From Candidatus Moraniibacteriota bacterium (GTDB taxonomy: Bacteria > Patescibacteriota > Minisyncoccia > Moranbacterales > UBA2206), in assembly GCA_026396175.1 (NCBI GenBank), contig JAPLXG010000013.1:65267-129266 (forward strand): 64,000 nt of DNA. The letters run 5' to 3'. Under the pieces are notes generated by a model, which searched no databases, had not been told where the DNA came from, and saw nothing but the letters and a program-made list of their open reading frames with translations. The position numbers were made by a program, and so were the translations under genes. Below, piece after piece: positions 22,873 through 30,987 of this stretch; positions within the stretch are counted from its first letter, which is position 1, and each line of letters opens with the position of its first letter.

Positions 22873-23601
22873 TTATCCTAAGTAATGTTCCAAAGTATAA
22901 ATCCAATTTTCATCATTATTCTCCTCTTGATCGCGCGCACGAACTTTTTCGTTCAAAAGCCATTGGAGGTAATTTCGATCCTTCCCCGCAACATCCGCCA
23001 CGCTCATCCCGATATATTTCCCGAAGTTGAATTTTTTGACCAAAACCGGGCGCGCAGAAACATCCAGCATTTCTTGGATTATTATCGCTTCATCCTTCCC
23101 GCCAGTTAACATTTTTTCAAAATAGAAATCAAACAATCTTTCCAAAACGCGGATATCCCCCAACGCGTCATGCGCCTGGGCATTCGGCACTTCCAAGTCA
23201 TGATAGTAGCGCAAATATTGCAGCGCGTATTTGGGAATTTCTCCGGAAGCGTCAAGATATTGCGCCAATTTGAAAGTATCGATCAAATTTTTCGGTTCCA
23301 GTTTTTCGCGCTTGAGCATCTCTGCGTCAAACCCGGCGTTATGCGCAACCAAAATGTGATCACCGGAAAAAATTTCCGCTAACTTTTTATGCATCGCAGA
23401 GTCTAAAAATAATTCTTTATCCGCCACCATTTTATTCGTGATATGCGCCACCGCCATCGCGTCAATACTAATCGGCACCGGCGGCTTAAAAAGCGCTTCG
23501 TTTTCCGCATCTTGAAATTTATAGGCCACTTGGCATAAACGATCATCCGGCCCAATCCCGGTCGTTTCAGTGTCGAGAAATATCAAATGCGATTTGTTCA
23601 T
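22873..23601 (-). CDS. DEDDh 3'-5' exonuclease (DnaQ-like) with C-terminal helical domain
   Basis: Exo I motif FLDTETTG, Exo II HNAGFDAEML, Exo III HDALGDIRVL. Confidence 0.8.
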   Translation of the reverse strand: MNKSHLIFLDTETTGIGPDDRLCQVAYKFQDAENEALFKPPVPISIDAMAVAHITNKMVADKELFLDSAMHKKLAEIFSGDHILVAHNAGFDAEMLKREKLEPKNLIDTFKLAQYLDASGEIPKYALQYLRYYHDLEVPNAQAHDALGDIRVLERLFDFYFEKMLTGGKDEAIIIQEMLDVSARPVLVKKFNFGKYIGMSVADVAGKDRNYLQWLLNEKVRARDQEENNDENWIYTLEHYLG

Positions 23602-23772
23602 TTATTTTTTGAAAGTTATTTTTTAGTCTACAATGTGTTATGTGATGTCATTTTTTTATTCCTTATTGTAATTTTCTCAATCCGCTTTTTTATTCAAATT
23701 GTAAATAAGTTTTTTTGATTTTGGTTTTGGGCAGAGGGGTAGGGGTGAATGCCCAAAATCAAAAACTCCTTG

Positions 23773-24390
23773 CTACTTCTTTTTTAAAATAATTTTTCCT
23801 CTCGTTTTTCTATTCTCATCGTTTCCGTAAAAGCCACTAATCTCTTTTGGCTTACACTCTTCAAAATTAAGAATGGCAAAGCCACAATGTCCCACAAAAC
23901 CAGTATTTGCTAGGTCTGTTTCTGTCGGGTTATTTGTATATTTATAACCCAAAATCCATTCTTCTTTATTGTTTTGATTTTTTTCAAAATAATTAGAGGA
24001 GCTTTTAAATTTTGATTGATCAAAATTGCCAGAGTATATAAAACCGCCATCTGTCTTTTTGATTTCTATTTTGCCGATTCCTTTGGTATTGTATTGTGAA
24101 TTTTCCCAATCATATTTATAAGAACTAGAATATTCCATTTCCCATTTTCCCGTGATGTCTGGATATTCTTGAAATCCAATGAATATAAATATTTTTTTGA
24201 TTAACCAATGCTTATTCCATAAATATTTTTCGTAAATAAAATTTAGAAAATAAAGAATCAAAAAAATTATAGCCGAGACGATGCTGTATTTCCAGAAATT
24301 TAGCCTGGGAAATCTATTGCTTACTGCATAAAATGCAAAAGTCAATAATACAGATATCGAAACAATTTTTTTCAAATCTAATTTTGTCAT
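23773..24390 (-). CDS. 2TM membrane protein with beta-rich C-terminal domain; candidate effector (Cap15-like/SLATT-like) of the adjacent NTase
   Basis: Start MTKLDLKK at 24390 overlaps the upstream stop (ATGA). Two TM helices (IVSISVLLTFAFYAV, IVSAIIFLILYFLNFI) are followed by a soluble Gly/Tyr/Lys-rich domain of about 125 aa. The region is AT-rich. Confidence 0.55.
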   Translation of the reverse strand: MTKLDLKKIVSISVLLTFAFYAVSNRFPRLNFWKYSIVSAIIFLILYFLNFIYEKYLWNKHWLIKKIFIFIGFQEYPDITGKWEMEYSSSYKYDWENSQYNTKGIGKIEIKKTDGGFIYSGNFDQSKFKSSSNYFEKNQNNKEEWILGYKYTNNPTETDLANTGFVGHCGFAILNFEECKPKEISGFYGNDENRKTRGKIILKKK

Positions 24391-25319
24391 AGCTTTTCTA
24401 AAATAAGACCGGCACTTTTTGAGATAAATATTTTTGCATTGTCTAACCCCCATCCATTTTTAGATAAAAACAGTAAGTCTTGACCATTGGCACATTTATA
24501 ATACTGCAATGATCCATTTTCTGAATCGTTAAGTGTATTTTGCAATACATTAATCACGATGCTTTGATAGCTTCCGTTAAATACGGGAGCAGGACAATTA
24601 TAAATCAGATTTTCAATGAAATATGACGGAGCAAGCTTTGCATCCATTTCATTTTTTTCATTTAGTTTTTTTCTGATATTTTTAAAAATTCTTATTGAAT
24701 CTTTAAATTTACCCTCCGTATCGCGATTGAGAGCTTCACAATTTTTTTTATGTTCTTTTGGATAATTTATAATTAAATCATTTGTTTCTGTGTTGTAAAA
24801 TTTTATGCCAGCTACATATTGATCAGTCGTATAAAAAGTAAAACGCCCATACTTTCTGTGATGAAAGGCAGGAATTACATCAGCATTTACGCGTAAAGTA
24901 TTTTTAGGTATTTTTATGCTTTTTCCCCCATACTCAATGGTCGTTCCCGAAAAATATTTTTGCAAAGAAGCATAAACATCTTTTTTGAATTGAGCGAATT
25001 GATATGCGCTTTTATTTGAGTAAAATGAGTGAAAATCTTTCTTTTCTTCTTCTGTTAATTGGTTTATATCATACGAAAATACAGAATTTAATTCAATCAC
25101 CACATCAACATCGCTATCTTCGGTAATATTTGTGCTATTTGCATATGATCCTTGCAGATAAATTTCATAGTTTTCTGCCTTAATTTCATATCCATGATTA
25201 TTTTTTGCAAATTCCGATAAATAAGCCGCCAAAGCTTTTCTAATTTCTTCGTGGGTGTATTTATATTTTGTTGCAGTTGGCGATGAAGCCCATGATTGTA
25301 GTTGTTGCTCCGATATCAT
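24387..25319 (-). CDS. minimal Pol-beta-superfamily nucleotidyltransferase, SMODS/CD-NTase-like
   Basis: 310 aa. GS-x11-DVDVV (LQGSYANSTNITEDSDVDVVIE) is followed by a third acidic strand (VNADVIPAF). The start overlaps the vsr stop (ATGA). The pairing with a downstream 2TM protein fits CBASS-like modules. Confidence 0.6.
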   Translation of the reverse strand: MISEQQLQSWASSPTATKYKYTHEEIRKALAAYLSEFAKNNHGYEIKAENYEIYLQGSYANSTNITEDSDVDVVIELNSVFSYDINQLTEEEKKDFHSFYSNKSAYQFAQFKKDVYASLQKYFSGTTIEYGGKSIKIPKNTLRVNADVIPAFHHRKYGRFTFYTTDQYVAGIKFYNTETNDLIINYPKEHKKNCEALNRDTEGKFKDSIRIFKNIRKKLNEKNEMDAKLAPSYFIENLIYNCPAPVFNGSYQSIVINVLQNTLNDSENGSLQYYKCANGQDLLFLSKNGWGLDNAKIFISKSAGLILEKL

Positions 25320-25726
25320 ATAGCTCCTTTTATAAATAAACTTAATTTTTCAGCACTTTTGTCAATCCTTTTAAGATCATGCTCCCAAATTCTAAAAATT
25401 TTCCAACCTAATTTTTTATATTGTCTATTAACCTCCTTGTCTCGTTCTTTGTTCCTGTCGATTTTTGTTTCCCAAAATTTTTTTCGAGTTTGAGGCATTG
25501 AACCATGCTTTTTGCATCCGTGCCAAAAACAAGAATCTATAAAAATAACGGTTTTGTGTTTGGGCAAAACAATATCAGGCTTCCCGAAATATTTTGTCGA
25601 ATTTTTACGATAACGAAACCCCGCTTTCCATAATTTTTTCCGAAATTCAATTTCTATCTTACTGTCCTTGCTTCGAACTTTTGACATAATCTCACTGCGT
25701 TTCTTTTTGGAAAAAATATCAGTCAT
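25316..25726 (-). CDS. vsr: very short patch repair endonuclease
   Basis: 136 aa. RSEIMSKVRSKDSKIEI, GKPDIVLPKHKTVIFIDSCFWHGC and WE.K match the Vsr family. Confidence 0.85.
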   Translation of the reverse strand: MTDIFSKKKRSEIMSKVRSKDSKIEIEFRKKLWKAGFRYRKNSTKYFGKPDIVLPKHKTVIFIDSCFWHGCKKHGSMPQTRKKFWETKIDRNKERDKEVNRQYKKLGWKIFRIWEHDLKRIDKSAEKLSLFIKGAI

Positions 25727-25734
25727 GACTGTTT

Positions 25735-26823
25735 TTATTTCAGAAATCTGATTTGTAAATTCAACTTGAAAAACAACTTGCCGTTTTCTTCATACAATTC
25801 ACCATAGCCATATCTGGTCGTGCTTGGTGCGTCAAATTTGGTGTTTTCATACAAATAAGAACGAAATTCATCTCGATTATACAAATGGTAGCATACCACA
25901 TCTCCATTTTCTTTTACCACAATATAGCCTCCTTGCGCTTTCGAAAAACCATCCCATGGTTTGCTGGGCACCATGCCGAGCGCAATCGCATCTAAAAAGT
26001 TTTTTATTTTGTATTCGTAATTCGTGAGCGATAATCCGAATTTTTGTTTCATATCCTCATTTTTGGAAAGCTCTTTTGTTAAATCAGCAACGGTTCTGTG
26101 TGTATTCGAGAAAAAATCCAAAAGCATTTGAGCGATAAATTCCGGCAATGCAGTATCAATCATTTTCATATTGAATTCGAATTGTTCATTTGAAACTCCA
26201 GCATATCTGAAAACCCCGCCCTGTTCCGTGATTTTGCTTACACGATCACGAATTTGCGCATTTGTTTGAATCGCATTAACTTTTGAAAGGTCTCCACTGA
26301 ATTCACTGATTTCATAAATGAAATTTGTTGTTTGTCCCGGGTTTAACAACGTAGAAGCTCCGCCAACCATAGACTTGATGGAAAAACCGAGCATCGGCAT
26401 TGTTTTTGAAATTGTGTCATAAATAATTGCCACCAAATCAGCTTTCTTTGCATTGCTGGCTTTAACTTTTGTGCAAAGCAATTCTTTCATTAATTCTTGC
26501 GCTTCGGGAATATTAAAAGAACGACTTCTTTCGTTTTTTATTTTTTCAAATATTTTCAAAGTTTTTTCCTTGAGTGAGTCATTGTTAAATTCTTTTAACA
26601 ATACGCCTTCCTCGTTGGTTATTAAAACCTTGGTTGCCGACTCAGAAATGTCATAAATTTTAGTTGATTCATCTTTTTCTTCTCTGATAATTTTATGAAA
26701 AACAAAAAACTTACCGTCAATTATTTCAAGATTTTTATCGGCAGCAAAAATCTTTCTTTCCTCTAAAATTTTTAGAAAAGCGTAAAATTCCGACCATTCT
26801 CCTTTGTTATTTCCTGTTTCCAT
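25735..26823 (-). CDS. putative type II restriction endonuclease (HpaII-like size and context)
   Basis: 362 aa with no recognisable motif. It sits between the C5 methyltransferase and vsr, overlapping the methyltransferase gene by 17 nt. The M-R-V arrangement mirrors known HpaII-type cassettes. The call rests on context. Confidence 0.4.
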   Translation of the reverse strand: METGNNKGEWSEFYAFLKILEERKIFAADKNLEIIDGKFFVFHKIIREEKDESTKIYDISESATKVLITNEEGVLLKEFNNDSLKEKTLKIFEKIKNERSRSFNIPEAQELMKELLCTKVKASNAKKADLVAIIYDTISKTMPMLGFSIKSMVGGASTLLNPGQTTNFIYEISEFSGDLSKVNAIQTNAQIRDRVSKITEQGGVFRYAGVSNEQFEFNMKMIDTALPEFIAQMLLDFFSNTHRTVADLTKELSKNEDMKQKFGLSLTNYEYKIKNFLDAIALGMVPSKPWDGFSKAQGGYIVVKENGDVVCYHLYNRDEFRSYLYENTKFDAPSTTRYGYGELYEENGKLFFKLNLQIRFLK

Positions 26824-28486
26824 ATTTTTTTAAAGTTTTAACTATTTCTTCAGCCACCGCTTGAATTGCCGGAACGGCAACTGAATTTCCAAGTTGCTTC
26901 ATGGCCTGAACCGATGAAAAATTTGGTGGAAATTCGTACCAATCGGGAAAACCTTGCATTTTTAATCCCTCTTTCGGTCCAAGCTGAACAATCTTTCCAT
27001 TAACTCTGTAAGCGTCCCAATTTCTGCGATCGGTTATTTTGCTTCCGCGCCCACCGACACGCAATGTAAATCCTATTTCCTTGTCGCATTTTCCATTGAA
27101 AATATCTGACAAGGTATATTTCAATTCCTTGATTGGTTCGGGAAATTTAAAATCTATCGAAGTATCCTTAAAACCAACCATGAAAAGACGAGGACGGTGT
27201 TGAGGTAATCCAAAATCAGAGGCTCTGACAATTTGCGGAAAGAAAGAATATCCCAATTCTTTCGTAATAACCCTTTCTATGGTTTTAAATGTTTTTCCAT
27301 CGTCATGACTTAATAGGCCACGCACATTTTCCAGAAAAAATGCCTTTGGCTTTTTTTCTTTAATTATTTTTACAATATCAAAAAACAAAGTTCCACGAGT
27401 TTCGCTAAATCCTTTTTTGAATCCGGCTTGAGAAAATGGCTGACAAGGAAATCCCGCTGTCAAAATATCAAAATCCGGGATATCTTTTGTTTTAATTTTT
27501 GTAATATCGCCAATGAAATTTCCAGAATCAAACATTTCAGGAGAAATTTTATAAAGATTGTGTCTGTATGTTTTTTGAGCGGGTCCGTCCCATTCTGATA
27601 CGAAGACACATTCCGCTCCTGCATTATGAAATGCAATATGGAAACCGCCAATACCTGCGAATAAATCTATAAATCGCAAATTGTCACTCTTCTTTTTGTT
27701 TTTTGCCATTGAGTTATTATAAAAATATAATTGATTTGCATCTACCAGCAAATCAAACAGGGAGGCTTGCGAGCCTTCCGCCACATATTCCGTGTTTGTT
27801 AATTCCACATTCTTCAAGTCACCAAGTATGCTATGCACCCCGTTTTTTGCAACAATTAAAAAATCGATAACATTTACGCCCATTAATTGCCCGGCTTCAA
27901 TTATCCTTTTTGCGACCTGCTTGTCCTGCTCACTTGGTTTCGGATCACCTGATGGGTGATTGTGAATAAGAATTACACCCGCTGCGTGCATTTCCAATCC
28001 GGGGGCAAAAATTTCTCGCGGGTGAATAATGCTTTTGTCCAATGTTCCGATTGAAATGGTTTCTTTTTTTATCAGAGCGTTACGTGCGTTCAAATAAAGA
28101 CAAATGAGATGTTCTTGTTTCTTGTCTTTTAAGTCCAAAACAAGATTAATGGCGTCTTGTGCTGACAAAATTAAATTATCCAAAGAATTTTGTTTGTTAA
28201 AAATTCTTCCGGTTAATGCGAGTGCTGATGAAATCTGCAACGCCTTCGCTTGTCCTATTCCTGAAATTTTCATTAAATCAGCAACTGAAACATTTAATAA
28301 ATTATCTCCAAATTTTTTGATAATCTTTTGTGATAATACTTTTACATTAGTGCCTTTAATCCCACTGCCAAGCAAAATAGCCAAAAGCTCGCTATCAGTT
28401 AAAGCATCCGGTCCTTTTTCCAGAAATTTTTCTCTGGGGCGATCAAATTTTGGTATATCTTTAATTTTAGGCATATTTGATGACAT
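26807..28486 (-). CDS. RadC-like JAB/MPN domain fused to DNA cytosine-5 methyltransferase (Dcm)
   Basis: N-terminal part of about 230 aa: HhH region (LMKISGIGQAKA), then JAMM motif HNHPSGDPKPSEQD. C-terminal part of about 320 aa: motif I FIDLFAGIGGF, motif IV GFPCQPFSQAG, motif VI ENV, and C-terminal motifs. The reading frame is continuous. Confidence 0.75.
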   Translation of the reverse strand: MSSNMPKIKDIPKFDRPREKFLEKGPDALTDSELLAILLGSGIKGTNVKVLSQKIIKKFGDNLLNVSVADLMKISGIGQAKALQISSALALTGRIFNKQNSLDNLILSAQDAINLVLDLKDKKQEHLICLYLNARNALIKKETISIGTLDKSIIHPREIFAPGLEMHAAGVILIHNHPSGDPKPSEQDKQVAKRIIEAGQLMGVNVIDFLIVAKNGVHSILGDLKNVELTNTEYVAEGSQASLFDLLVDANQLYFYNNSMAKNKKKSDNLRFIDLFAGIGGFHIAFHNAGAECVFVSEWDGPAQKTYRHNLYKISPEMFDSGNFIGDITKIKTKDIPDFDILTAGFPCQPFSQAGFKKGFSETRGTLFFDIVKIIKEKKPKAFFLENVRGLLSHDDGKTFKTIERVITKELGYSFFPQIVRASDFGLPQHRPRLFMVGFKDTSIDFKFPEPIKELKYTLSDIFNGKCDKEIGFTLRVGGRGSKITDRRNWDAYRVNGKIVQLGPKEGLKMQGFPDWYEFPPNFSSVQAMKQLGNSVAVPAIQAVAEEIVKTLKKYGNRK

Positions 28487-28725
28487 AAAACTTAACTGCC
28501 TGTATTATACCTTAAATAAATATAAAATAAAAATCGCTTTTTCTGCGCCTTTCAATAGCAGAAAAACACCCTAAACCACTCATAAAAGATAAAAAAACTT
28601 ATTTTTCCTTATTATAAAAAAGCGGATTGATAAAAAATATAAAAAGTAAAAAAAATATTTATCCGCAGTTCTATTATGGCACATTATTTTTTTGTGGTAA
28701 ATAAACAATCTAAAAACTCCCCTCT

Positions 28726-30908: not shown

Positions 30909-30915
30909 CTTGTGG

Positions 30916-30987
30916 TAGCCCCAAGGAGAGTCGGACTCCTCTTTCCAGGATGAGAACCTGACGTCCTAACCGATAGACGATGGGGCC
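30916..30987 (-). tRNA. tRNA-Glu (anticodon CTC) with non-canonical T-loop
   Basis: The minus-strand sequence ggccccatcgtctatcggttaggacgtcaggttctcatcctggaaagaggagtccgactctccttggggcta folds as a cloverleaf (7-bp acceptor, D-loop with GG, anticodon loop ttctcat, T-stem aggag/ctcct). The T-loop reads tccgact instead of TTCRANY. Confidence 0.5.

What the first reader, a model, noticed from the sequence alone, without database searches (positions are those of the whole stretch)
23602..28725. AT-rich block of about 5 kb: five translationally coupled defence genes joining an m5C RM/Vsr cassette to a CBASS-like NTase plus 2TM effector
The five consecutive minus-strand genes are a RadC-Dcm fusion, a putative REase, vsr, a SMODS/CD-NTase-like gene, and a 2TM effector gene. 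Adjacent pairs overlap or abut: dcm/REase overlap by 17 nt; REase/vsr are 8 bp apart; vsr/NTase share an ATGA; and NTase/effector share an ATGA. This looks like a single operon. The block is clearly more AT-rich than the flanking genes (roughly one third GC against about 45% for dnaK, ftsZ and others, judged by eye). It lies between a DnaQ-like exonuclease gene and a sortase/surface-protein pair. Hard-wiring a restriction-modification cassette with its Vsr repair partner to a cyclic-nucleotide-type abortive-infection module is unusual. In a reduced genome that otherwise carries mostly core functions, it is the clearest candidate for an undescribed defence arrangement.
Basis: partly seen in the sequence, partly recalled or inferred. 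Interest (0 to 1): 0.9.

Follow-up and report, generated by a model that had tools for sequence, protein, structure and literature searches.

The report
Mobile restriction-plus-CBASS defence cassette
A 5-kb piece of foreign DNA in a Moranbacteria (CPR) genome carries two already-known anti-phage systems in one tight operon: a HpaII-type restriction-modification system with its Vsr repair nuclease, and a two-gene CBASS suicide module. Related copies show the two are interchangeable modules rather than one new wired machine.

Summary
Five minus-strand genes at 23773-28486 overlap or abut exactly as described. The block is 33.2% GC against 42.6% for the rest of the window.

All five gene identities are confirmed:
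- a RadC-fused m5C methyltransferase
- an HpaII-family endonuclease
- Vsr
- a clade-E CD-NTase (CdnE)
- a Cap15 membrane effector

The block is a discrete insertion of about 5.03 kb (23636-28660), bounded by inverted repeats of about 65 nt. It is absent from the nine closest relatives examined. It sits between the exonuclease gene and that gene's own promoter.

The "hard-wired, undescribed system" reading is only partly supported:
- The same RadC-Dcm/HpaII backbone carries other cargo elsewhere: a TIR-domain pair, an OLD nuclease, or a second RM system.
- The same CdnE-Cap15 pair sits behind or inside type I, II and III RM operons elsewhere.

The window therefore holds two autonomous known systems joined in a cargo slot, which is a known pattern of defence-system embedding.

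Moderately new points:
- a RadC-Dcm fusion conserved across CPR
- recurrent RM-CBASS operon linkage
- an integron-like setting for sister cassettes (IntI/Xer-type recombinase plus an attC-like site)

Functional wiring is not excluded, but nothing here supports it.

The parts
28673..28701 (-). Host promoter-like site of the exonuclease gene (-35 TTTACC, TG-extended -10 CATAAT). The insertion has separated it from the exonuclease gene, and it now reads into the cassette.
   Evidence: Promoter scan. The same 'aataatgtgccataataga' lies about 30-45 nt upstream of the exonuclease ATG in the empty sites L015 and L019. Function is inferred.
23636..28660 (-). The inserted cassette as a whole, about 5.03 kb. 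Its ends are uncertain by about 10-15 nt.
   Evidence: blastn: window 29475-28670 and 23625-22879 are contiguous in L019, 12 nt apart. Window 28660-23636 is 86% identical to L003 467-5491, which has different flanks.
28591..28655 (.). Left arm of the terminal inverted repeat.
   Evidence: the repeat finder I1: 65 nt, 74% complementary. Local alignment score is 59 against a shuffle maximum of 37. The sister element L003 scores 106 against 36. The outermost GTTATGTGA seen in L003, L175 and L191 is not recognisable here.
28504..28509 (-). Cassette-internal TATAAT box, 17 nt upstream of the radC-dcm ATG.
   Evidence: Sequence. The motif TATAATA..CAGTTAA is conserved upstream of radC-dcm in L175 and L191. 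Promoter activity is inferred.
26807..28486 (-). radC-dcm. The N-terminal part is HhH (UPF0758_N) plus a RadC JAB domain with an intact HNHPSGxxxPSxxD motif. The C-terminal part is an m5C DNA methyltransferase with motifs FAGIGG, PCQPFS, ENV, QHRPR and GNSV.
   Evidence: Pfam, PADLOC and NCBIfam. PDB hits: M.HhaI 4e-64 and RadC 2QLC 2e-25. More than 110 fusion homologues were found. The linker is conserved. dN/dS is 0.04.
25735..26823 (-). HpaII-family type II restriction endonuclease. Predicted specificity is CCGG.
   Evidence: PF09561 RE_HpaII, E = 1e-109, profile positions 1-359 of 359. PADLOC REase_II, 3e-91. dN/dS is 0.05. Specificity is inferred from the family.
25316..25726 (-). vsr: very-short-patch-repair T:G mismatch endonuclease.
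   Evidence: PF03852, 1e-29. E. coli Vsr 1CW0, 2e-19, with the PD...CFWH region aligned. dN/dS is 0.06.
24387..25319 (-). cdnE: CBASS CD-NTase of clade E.
   Evidence: PADLOC cyclase, 1.6e-88. The family profile hits RmCdnE 6E0K at 8.8e-83. Ser58, D70xD72 and D147 are invariant in 33 homologues and Gly57 nearly so (>=90%). dN/dS is 0.09.
23773..24390 (-). cap15: membrane effector with a hydrophobic N-terminus and a cyclic-nucleotide receptor domain of the Cap15 family.
   Evidence: PF18153, 7e-11, above gathering score. PADLOC 2TM effector, 8e-21 over residues 9-205. Hydrophobic segments at about 9-25 and 34-53. dN/dS is 0.04.
23712..23765 (-). Conserved hairpin immediately after cap15. It marks the 3' border of the variable cargo slot.
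   Evidence: Inverted repeat I24. RNA fold is -16.7 kcal/mol, z = -1.85. It is conserved at 80-82% in L175 and L191 even though the upstream cargo differs. There is no T-run, so a terminator function is uncertain.
23636..23716 (.). Right arm of the terminal inverted repeat, including the terminal core TCACATAAC (GTTATGTGA on the + strand at 23637-23645).
   Evidence: Homology to L003, L175 and L191 stops exactly at 23636.

Best explanation
The block is a horizontally acquired defence cassette of about 5 kb in a Candidatus Moraniibacteriota (CPR) genome. It packs two self-sufficient, already-known immune systems into one co-oriented, translationally coupled operon.

**First layer: a HpaII-type type II RM system.**
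- The m5C methyltransferase, here fused to an N-terminal RadC HhH-JAB module, protects host CCGG sites.
- The endonuclease cuts unmethylated incoming DNA.
- Vsr nicks the T:G mismatches left by 5-methylcytosine deamination, which limits the mutational cost of methylation.

**Second layer: a type I CBASS.**
- If a phage gets past restriction, CdnE makes a cyclic nucleotide signal.
- Cap15 binds the signal and disrupts the membrane, killing the infected cell (abortive infection).

**How the two relate.** They are joined because the slot between the REase gene and a conserved 3' hairpin is a variable cargo position in this cassette family. Nothing found here indicates that either needs the other biochemically. 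Co-transcription gives shared regulation and joint transfer.

**Shown here.** Gene identities, junctions, composition, insertion boundaries, inverted repeats, modular swapping, and purifying selection on all five genes.

**Inferred.** CCGG specificity, the nucleotide product, co-transcription, anti-phage activity, and the mobility mechanism.
- Sister copies lie next to an IntI/Xer-type tyrosine recombinase and carry an attC-like site.
- The window copy has neither.
For: **Gene families and catalytic motifs.**

**Junction geometry.**

**Composition.** GC is 33.2% against 42.6%, the lowest 5.1-kb window.

**Insertion.**
- The nine nearest Moraniibacteriota relatives lack the block. L019 shows a clean empty site.
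- A discrete unit is shared at 86% identity with L003 in other flanks.
- The terminal inverted repeats are far above shuffle scores in both copies. The arms co-vary between copies.

**Modularity.**
- The same backbone and ends carry other cargo: L175/L176 have a TIR-domain pair, and L191/L192 have Vsr plus an OLD nuclease.
- The same RM genes are followed by a Dam-type RM system in L177, L179-181 and L185-190.
- The CBASS pair is spliced exactly at its start codon behind other RM systems.
- The pair is embedded in type I and type III RM operons.

**Selection.** dN/dS is 0.04-0.09 with dS 0.55-1.04 for all five genes.
Against: - There are no expression or phage-challenge data.
- The census had no background control. 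RM components flank at least 13 of 39 distant CdnE loci and 4 of 4 close contexts. That rate may exceed ordinary defence-island clustering and could point to functional coupling.
- The left outermost repeat core and the attC-like segment are missing in the window copy, so its mode of arrival is unclear.
- Cap15's first transmembrane segment is weak by simple hydropathy.
- Pfam Cap15_TM did not hit.
Confidence: 0.74

Rival explanations
1. Functionally wired two-tier system. The CBASS module monitors the RM module. In one version it works like PrrC guarding EcoprrI and fires when a phage anti-restriction protein disables restriction. In another version, DNA ends or fragments made by the REase activate CdnE.
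For: - vsr/cdnE and cdnE/cap15 share ATGA stop-start overlaps, and L003 has the same overlaps.
- All four distinct contexts of close CdnE homologues (at least 58% identity) have an RM system directly upstream.
- In distant homologues the pair is inserted between hsdM/S and hsdR, or between mod and res, in the same orientation.
- The trigger of most type I CBASS systems is unknown.
Against: - The partner RM systems belong to unrelated types (II, IIG/I-like, I, III, ISP). A specific protein-protein guard is therefore unlikely.
- The same RM backbone works with quite different cargo or with none of this kind.
- About two thirds of distant CdnE loci show no RM neighbour.
- Embedding of autonomous systems in RM operons is common (bioRxiv 10.1101/2024.01.29.577857).
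Confidence: 0.13
2. Inverse (Panoptes-like) signalling. The cyclase is constitutively active, its product keeps the 2TM beta-barrel effector off, and phage nucleotide sponges or nucleases release the effector.
For: Cap15-like 2TM-beta effectors are used in this way by Panoptes systems (PMC12657218). There is no sensor or regulator gene in the block.
Against: The cyclase is a canonical clade-E CD-NTase closest to RmCdnE, not an mCpol or minimal Cas10-type polymerase. The PADLOC models that match both proteins are CBASS models.
Confidence: 0.05
3. The CBASS or RM genes are decaying passengers, or act chiefly as an addiction module that stabilises the selfish cassette, with little role in phage defence.
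For: - RM systems are known to act as selfish, post-segregationally killing elements (established knowledge).
- CCGG is not depleted in the window: 243 observed against 225 expected.
- The window copy has eroded ends.
Against: - All five ORFs are intact.
- dN/dS is 0.04-0.09 over dS of about 0.6-1.0.
- Catalytic residues are invariant.
Confidence: 0.06

Closest known systems
HpaII restriction-modification system with an associated Vsr ('V.' component of m5C type II systems)
   Same: - An RE_HpaII-family endonuclease, an m5C methyltransferase and a Vsr mismatch nuclease lie together in one cluster.
- Vsr proteins are a recognised accessory of type II systems and carry the prefix 'V.' (PMC4081073).
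- That the Haemophilus HpaII locus itself carries a vsr homologue is from my own knowledge and was not checked here.
   Different: - The methyltransferase carries an N-terminal RadC (HhH + JAB) module. This fusion is conserved in more than 110 CPR protein clusters.
- The fusion is not among the RadC fusions listed in PMC3239186 or PMC5512222.
- The gene order is M-R-V, with overlapping genes.
Type I CBASS with a clade-E CD-NTase and a Cap15 effector
   Same: - It is a two-gene cyclase-effector unit with no Cap2/Cap3 or HORMA/TRIP13 genes.
- The cyclase is closest to RmCdnE, EmCdnE and EfCdnE structures.
- The effector matches the Cap15 cyclic-dinucleotide receptor domain.
- The Cap15 membrane-disruption mechanism is from published work recalled from memory.
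   Different: - It has no promoter region of its own. The cyclase start codon overlaps the vsr stop.
- The lineage is largely CPR.
- The nucleotide product and the trigger are unknown.
Defence genes embedded in RM operons (PrrC in EcoprrI; DarTG2 in an EPEC type I RM system; 'guilt-by-embedding')
   Same: - An abortive-infection module is co-oriented and co-transcribed with an RM system.
- Relatives of this CBASS pair sit between hsdM/S and hsdR, or between mod and res.
- The phenomenon is documented in PMC12707154, PMC12255303 and bioRxiv 10.1101/2024.01.29.577857.
   Different: - Here the host system is a type II RM system, and the module is appended after vsr rather than placed between subunit genes.
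- A PrrC-like guard relationship was not shown.
Integron gene cassettes that carry phage-defence systems
   Same: - Sister cassettes (L003, L175, L191) lie beside a divergent IntI/XerA-type tyrosine recombinase.
- They start at a GTTATGT core.
- They end with an imperfect palindrome of about 125 nt (ACATAAC...GGCATATCCGG...TCGGATATGCC...GTTAGGC) that folds strongly.
- Integron cassettes encoding defence systems are known (bioRxiv 10.1101/2024.07.02.601719).
   Different: - The cassette is 5 kb with five genes.
- It has its own TATAAT box and inverted repeats of 65-80 nt.
- The recombinase scores below the integron-integrase threshold (230.6 against 265).
- The window copy has no recombinase, no attC-like segment and no left core.
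Mobile RM units inserted with flanking repeats (comparative-genomics work on RM mobility; recalled from memory)
   Same: - An RM-containing unit is present or absent between conserved neighbours.
- L191 shows a 186-nt, 99% identical direct repeat on both sides.
   Different: - In this family, inverted termini and a recombinase-adjacent array accompany the unit.
- The window copy shows no long target duplication.

Membership tests
Type II RM, HpaII family | Endonuclease homologous to R.HpaII over its full length | tested here: met
   PF09561, E = 9.6e-110, residues 6-360 on profile positions 1-359 of 359.
Type II RM, HpaII family | Adjacent m5C methyltransferase with the conserved catalytic motifs | tested here: met
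   PF00145, 2.5e-80. TIGR00675, 273.6 bits against a cutoff of 100.65. FAGIGG, PCQPFS, ENV, QHRPR and GNSV are read directly from the sequence.
Type II RM, HpaII family | CCGG recognition, with methylation protecting against cleavage | not testable with these tools
   Inferred from the family only. Ten CCGG sites lie inside the cassette.
Vsr endonuclease | Vsr fold with the catalytic Asp and the CFWH zinc/His region | tested here: met
   PF03852, 1.1e-29. Alignment to E. coli Vsr 1CW0 at 2.2e-19, with PD(I/F)V and CFWH aligned.
CBASS CD-NTase (clade E) | Pol-beta NTase core with GS...DxD...D catalytic residues | tested here: met
   Ser58, D70, D72 and D147 are invariant in 33 homologues; Gly57 is nearly invariant (>=90%). 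PADLOC cyclase, 1.6e-88.
CBASS CD-NTase (clade E) | Closest solved relatives are CdnE enzymes | tested here: met
   Profile hits: 6E0K at 8.8e-83, 6E0M at 6.6e-65, 7X4C EfCdnE at 1.7e-63. NCBIfam's closest model is below its cutoff: NF053871, 262.8 bits against 350.
Type I CBASS | Cyclase plus a nucleotide-sensing effector, and no Cap2/Cap3 or HORMA/TRIP13 genes | tested here: met
   Only five genes lie between the host flanks. None matches E1/E2, Cap3-type JAB, HORMA or TRIP13. The RadC JAB domain also occurs in cassettes without CBASS.
Type I CBASS | Cyclic nucleotide synthesis on infection and abortive-infection protection | not testable with these tools
   Needs biochemistry and phage assays.
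Cap15 effector | C-terminal Cap15 cyclic-dinucleotide receptor (beta-barrel) domain | tested here: met
   PF18153, 42.9 bits against a gathering score of 31.2, residues 75-204 on profile positions 2-122 of 122. There is no PDB sequence hit, and the fold itself was not modelled.
Cap15 effector | Two N-terminal transmembrane helices | tested here: inconclusive
   Hydrophobic stretches lie at about 9-25 and 34-53, but only the second exceeds Kyte-Doolittle 1.6 over 19 residues. Pfam Cap15_TM did not hit. PADLOC '2TM' models align from residue 9.
RadC family | HhH N-terminal domain plus a JAB domain with the H-x-H...S...D metal motif | tested here: met
   NF000642, 220.2 bits against a cutoff of 180. 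PF20582 and PF04002 both match. H175, H177, S179 and D188 are invariant in 14 fusion homologues.
Integron gene cassette | Adjacent integron integrase | tested here: not met
   tblastn of the L175 recombinase finds no homologue in the 64-kb window. In sister loci the recombinase passes NF040815 (238.6 against 220) but not TIGR02249 (230.6 against 265).
Integron gene cassette | attC recombination site at the 3' end | tested here: not met
   The window copy ends at ACATAAC and lacks the palindrome of about 125 nt present in L003, L175 and L191.
TIR-bounded transposon / MITE-like element | Terminal inverted repeats | tested here: met
   65 nt at 74% complementarity, score 59 against a shuffle maximum of 37. 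L003 scores 106 against 36.
TIR-bounded transposon / MITE-like element | Target-site duplication and a cognate transposase | tested here: inconclusive
   Only an imperfect ATAAA(T/A)A repeat is seen at an AT-rich site. No transposase lies in the cassette or the window.
RM-guard abortive-infection module (PrrC type) | Effector held inactive by the RM complex and released when it is inhibited | not testable with these tools
   Only the genomic embedding is seen. The diversity of partner RM types argues against a specific interaction.

The most novel reading that the evidence does not exclude
The CdnE-Cap15 lineage is selected to ride inside RM operons because it is functionally coupled to restriction. 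CdnE would be triggered by a generic consequence of RM action or failure, such as restriction-generated DNA ends or fragments, or loss of the co-translated RM proteins. The operon would then be a true two-stage sensor-executioner circuit. Separately, the conserved RadC-Dcm fusion would reveal the long-sought role of RadC as a nucleic-acid or DNA-protein-adduct processing partner of m5C methylation.
Probability: 0.12. Interest if true: 0.8.

Novelty: new variant of a known kind. Interest (0 to 1): 0.42.

Why it matters
- Even a reduced CPR genome acquires layered immunity (restriction first, suicide second) as a single portable operon.
- The cassette family has a fixed RM backbone and a swappable cargo slot. 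That slot could be mined for new defence genes, for example the 134-aa protein paired with a TIR protein, or the 451-472-aa proteins paired with Dam-type methylases.
- The recurrent placement of one CBASS lineage inside type I, II and III RM operons gives a concrete, testable case for asking whether embedding means co-regulation only or real cross-talk.
- The RadC-Dcm fusion, conserved across CPR, offers a defined genetic context for the unresolved function of RadC.
- The recombinase-adjacent cassette arrays hint at integron-like gene capture in CPR bacteria.

Tried and rejected
- **RadC JAB as a Cap3-like CBASS regulator.** Rejected. The fusion is equally present in cassettes without CBASS.
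- **RadC-Dcm as a frameshift or read-through artefact.** Rejected. The linker is conserved at the protein level across more than 110 clusters, and the internal Met is not conserved.
- **Assembly breaks as evidence of strain variation.** Logan contigs break at the cassette edges. I do not count this as evidence, because hairpins and repeats break de Bruijn graphs.
- **Exact look-up of the sortase protein.** No record.
- **Plasmid and phage databases.** Only short hits to conserved Dcm and Vsr motifs, and no cassette.
- **Viral contigs.** Two single, unpaired matches to the repeat core, and one distant Dcm.
- **Rfam on the cassette and on L191.** Nothing meaningful.
- **The L175 134-aa protein as a diverged Vsr.** Rejected.
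- **A clean target-site duplication in the window.** Not demonstrable at this AT-rich site.
- **The 3' hairpin as an intrinsic terminator.** Weak: z = -1.85 and no T-run.
- **Other low-GC kilobases of the window (about 51 kb and 60 kb).** They hold ordinary genes.
- **The 2015 comparative-genomics paper that defined SMODS/2TM systems.** Not available in the library, so prior mention of RM linkage there could not be checked.
- **Background control for the RM-neighbour census.** None was run.

Full report
**1. Observation**

The five minus-strand ORFs are present with the stated geometry.
- radC-dcm: 26807-28486.
- REase: 25735-26823, overlapping dcm by 17 nt.
- vsr: 25316-25726, starting 8 nt after the REase stop.
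- NTase: 24387-25319, sharing an ATGA with vsr.
- Effector: start ATG at 24390, stop at 23773, sharing an ATGA with the NTase.

The mechanical ORF list extends the effector to 24453, but the ATG at 24390 is the coupled start.

Composition:
- The interval 23602-28725 is 33.2% GC; the rest of the window is 42.6%.
- It is the single lowest 5.1-kb window, about 7 sd below the non-overlapping ones.
- GC3 is 23-34% in the five genes and 38-50% in the neighbours.

The flanks are an RNase_T/ExoX-like exonuclease gene on one side and a sortase gene followed by a surface-protein gene on the other.

**2. Gene identities**

- **Gene 1.** Pfam gives UPF0758_N + RadC + DNA_methylase. NCBIfam passes both RadC (220 bits against 180) and dcm (274 against 101). 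The closest structures are M.HhaI and the RadC JAB domain 2QLC.
- **Gene 2.** A full-length RE_HpaII match at 1e-109.
- **Gene 3.** Vsr at 1e-29, and 2e-19 to E. coli Vsr 1CW0 with the catalytic region aligned.
- **Gene 4.**
  - Only weak Pfam SMODS and NTP_transf_2 hits.
  - Matches a PADLOC CBASS cyclase model at 1.6e-88.
  - A profile of 33 homologues hits the CdnE structures 6E0K, 6E0M and 7X4C at 1e-83 to 1e-63.
  - Ser58, Asp70-x-Asp72 and Asp147 are invariant and Gly57 is nearly so.
- **Gene 5.** Passes the Pfam gathering score for the Cap15 cyclic-dinucleotide receptor domain. It matches PADLOC '2TM' CBASS effectors over residues 9-205.

The window therefore holds a HpaII-type RM system with Vsr, plus a type I CBASS made of CdnE and Cap15. 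No Cap2/Cap3 or HORMA/TRIP13 genes are present.

**3. The block is an insertion with defined ends**

- **Host.** Homologues of the exonuclease place it in Candidatus Moraniibacteriota. The fusion methyltransferase is 100% identical to an NCBI protein from a Moranbacteria MAG.
- **Relatives.** None of the nine closest relatives examined (exonuclease 73-84% identical) carries any of the five genes upstream of the exonuclease.
- **Empty sites.**
  - In L019, sortase is followed after 88 nt by the exonuclease gene.
  - The two window flanks (29475-28670 and 23625-22879) are only 12 nt apart in L019.
- **Sister element.** A contig with different flanks, L003, shares window 28660-23636 at 86% nucleotide identity and nothing beyond.
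- **Inverted repeats.**
  - The unit is bounded by inverted repeats at 28591-28655 and 23652-23716: 65 nt, 74% complementary.
  - The alignment scores 59 against a shuffle maximum of 37. In L003 the arms reach about 80 nt and score 106 against 36.
  - The arms differ between elements but match within each element, so they are maintained.
- **Position in the host.**
  - The insertion lies between a conserved promoter-like site (TTTACC-17-TGcCATAAT, 28701-28673) and the exonuclease ATG.
  - In the empty sites L015 and L019 that promoter-like site lies about 30-45 nt upstream of the ATG.
  - The host promoter now reads into the cassette. The exonuclease gene must depend on read-through or on an unrecognised promoter.
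- **Internal promoter-like box.** A TATAAT box 17 nt upstream of radC-dcm is conserved in sister elements.

**4. All five genes are maintained**

Between the window and L003 copies, dN/dS is 0.04-0.09 with dS 0.55-1.04 for every gene. None of the five is a decaying passenger.

**5. Both halves are exchangeable modules**

Contexts of the RadC-Dcm + R.HpaII pair:
- **L175/L176** (MTase 93% identical).
  - They keep the left repeat, both RM genes, the 3' hairpin and the right repeat (window 28660-25730 and 23771-23636 at 82-83%).
  - They carry an unknown 134-aa protein plus a ThsB-like TIR protein in place of vsr-cdnE-cap15.
- **L191/L192** (92%). They keep the same ends and carry Vsr followed, after a 1-nt gap, by an OLD-family ATPase-TOPRIM nuclease.
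- **L177, L179-181, L185-190** (79-90%). The RM genes, with or without Vsr, are followed by uncharacterised proteins and a Dam-type methyltransferase, which looks like a second RM system.

Contexts of the CdnE-Cap15 pair:
- **L004** (81% identity): 13 nt behind a type I-like/IIG methylase and its S subunit.
- **L008** (77%): next to an MvaI/BcnI endonuclease and a LexA-S24-methylase fusion.
- **L010-13** (58%): next to a LexA-S24-Dcm fusion.
- DNA homology to the window starts exactly at the cdnE start codon (25320) and ends just after cap15.

Census of 39 more distant metagenomic loci (32-45% identity):
- The immediately upstream gene is an RM component in at least 11 loci.
- The gene after the effector is an RM component in at least 8 of 32 loci.
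- Explicit embedded architectures:
  - HsdS-CdnE-Cap15-HsdR (L098)
  - HsdM-CdnE-Cap15-HsdR (L095)
  - Mod-CdnE-Cap15-Res (L137-139)
- No background control was run for this census.

**6. Interpretation**

- Each half is a complete, known system.
- Each half occurs with alternative partners.
- The splice points coincide with gene boundaries.

The simplest reading is two autonomous defence layers joined in the cargo slot of a mobile RM cassette. They would be co-transcribed for shared regulation and joint transfer.

Same-orientation embedding of defence systems within RM operons is documented:
- PrrC in EcoprrI (PMC12707154)
- DarTG2 in a type I RM system (PMC12255303)
- a systematic survey (bioRxiv 10.1101/2024.01.29.577857)

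A PrrC-like guard relationship, or activation of CdnE by restriction products, is not excluded. The frequency of RM neighbours keeps that idea alive. The variety of partner RM types and of alternative cargo argues against a specific physical coupling.

**7. Mobility**

- No recombinase or transposase lies in the cassette or the window.
- In L003, L175 and L191 a divergent tyrosine recombinase gene lies just outside the left end.
  - The L003 and L175 copies are only 35% identical to each other.
  - The L191 protein passes NCBIfam 'site-specific tyrosine recombinase/integron integrase' (238.6 against 220). It falls short of the integron-integrase model (230.6 against 265).
- These sister cassettes begin at GTTATGTGA.
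- After the right repeat they carry a conserved imperfect palindrome of about 125 nt: ACATAAC-AA-GGCATATCCGG...TCGGATATGCC-TAAC-GTTAGGC.
  - Its bottom strand folds at -20.4 kcal/mol, z = -5.1.
  - Conservation between loci stops at AACG|TT.
- L191 shows two consecutive units bounded by inverted GTTATGTGA cores: an HD-domain gene, then the RM-Vsr-OLD unit. It also has a 186-nt, 99% identical direct repeat on either side of the second unit.
- This resembles an integron-like cassette array, and integron cassettes carrying defence systems are known (bioRxiv 10.1101/2024.07.02.601719).
- The window copy lacks the left core, the attC-like piece and a recombinase. It is best seen as a copy lodged at a secondary site, and how it arrived remains inferred.

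**8. RadC-Dcm**

- The fusion is found in more than 110 protein clusters at 58-100% identity from several CPR lineages, always with all three domains.
- The RadC part and the linker are conserved even where the methyltransferase target-recognition region differs. The JAB metal motif is invariant.
- Published RadC fusions include HhH, ArdC, DnaG and DinG-type helicases (PMC3239186, PMC5512222). A Dcm fusion is not mentioned in the passages read.
- Its role here is unknown. Processing of nucleic acid or of methyltransferase-DNA adducts is speculation.

**9. Verdict**

- The claim of a hard-wired, undescribed defence arrangement is only partly supported.
- The locus is a new variant of known kinds: an RM-anchored mobile defence cassette with type I CBASS cargo.
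- Three moderately interesting side results emerged:
  - the RadC-Dcm fusion
  - recurrent RM-CBASS operon linkage
  - integron-like cassette arrays in CPR

Noticed in passing
window 26807-28486; proteins P0121-P0240: RadC (HhH+JAB) fused to an m5C methyltransferase is a conserved architecture in more than 110 protein clusters from Moranbacteria, Gracilibacteria, Beckwithbacteria, Kerfeldbacteria and Parcubacteria. It includes members with different target-recognition regions. NCBI labels them simply 'DNA repair protein RadC'.
   Followed up: partly
L191 4928-12284; L003 1-5612; L175 6892-11935: Sister cassettes lie beside a divergent IntI/XerA-type tyrosine recombinase. They are bounded by inverted GTTATGTGA cores and followed by an attC-like palindrome of about 125 nt. 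L191 has two consecutive units and a 186-nt, 99% identical direct repeat. Together this looks like an integron-like array in CPR genomes.
   Followed up: partly
L008 7793-9658(-); L010 7942-9528(-); three of 39 metagenome loci: Proteins that fuse a LexA DNA-binding domain and an S24 autopeptidase to a DNA methyltransferase (N4/N6 or m5C type) lie next to the CdnE-Cap15 pair. This suggests SOS-type self-cleaving control of an RM methylase.
   Followed up: no
L175 10773-11622 (also L176 3107-3956): In the cargo slot a 134-aa protein with no family match is paired with a 146-aa ThsB-like TIR-domain protein. This may be a small uncharacterised two-gene defence module.
   Followed up: no
L177 4008-6210; L179 11168-14047; L185 3323-5594: Uncharacterised proteins of 451-472 aa (or 364 + 306 aa) with no Pfam match precede a Dam-type (MethyltransfD12) methylase directly after the HpaII module. 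They are candidate novel restriction endonucleases.
   Followed up: no
window 28673-28701 and 22873-23601: The insertion separates the exonuclease gene from its conserved promoter-like site by 5 kb. Exonuclease expression may now depend on read-through from the defence operon.
   Followed up: partly
window 30913-30987(-); L015 3613-3685: The tRNA-Glu gene (anticodon CTC) in the window lies upstream of the surface-protein/sortase pair; in L015 an unscanned tRNA-like sequence sits directly before the exonuclease gene. The stretch between the tRNA-Glu gene and the exonuclease gene differs among close relatives (nothing, sortase pair, SMC), so it behaves as a variable hotspot.
   Followed up: partly
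L004 5661-6069: A small unit containing a 105-aa ORF, bounded by inverted GTTGTGTGA cores, lies just downstream of the CBASS pair. It may be another cassette of the same kind.
   Followed up: no
window 27731-27756(-): A terminator-like hairpin with a T-rich tail lies inside the coding linker between the RadC and Dcm domains. The linker is conserved as protein, so the hairpin's significance is unclear.
   Followed up: no
window, whole: CCGG is not depleted in the 64-kb window (243 observed, 225 expected from trinucleotides), whereas GGCC, CATG and GATC are under-represented (ratios 0.66-0.72). This hints at other past or present RM pressures.
   Followed up: no
window 23773-25319 vs 25316-28486: Synonymous divergence from the L003 copy is lower for cdnE and cap15 (dS 0.55-0.65) than for the RM genes (0.88-1.04). 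The CBASS half may have a more recent common origin, or the difference may reflect codon bias.
   Followed up: no
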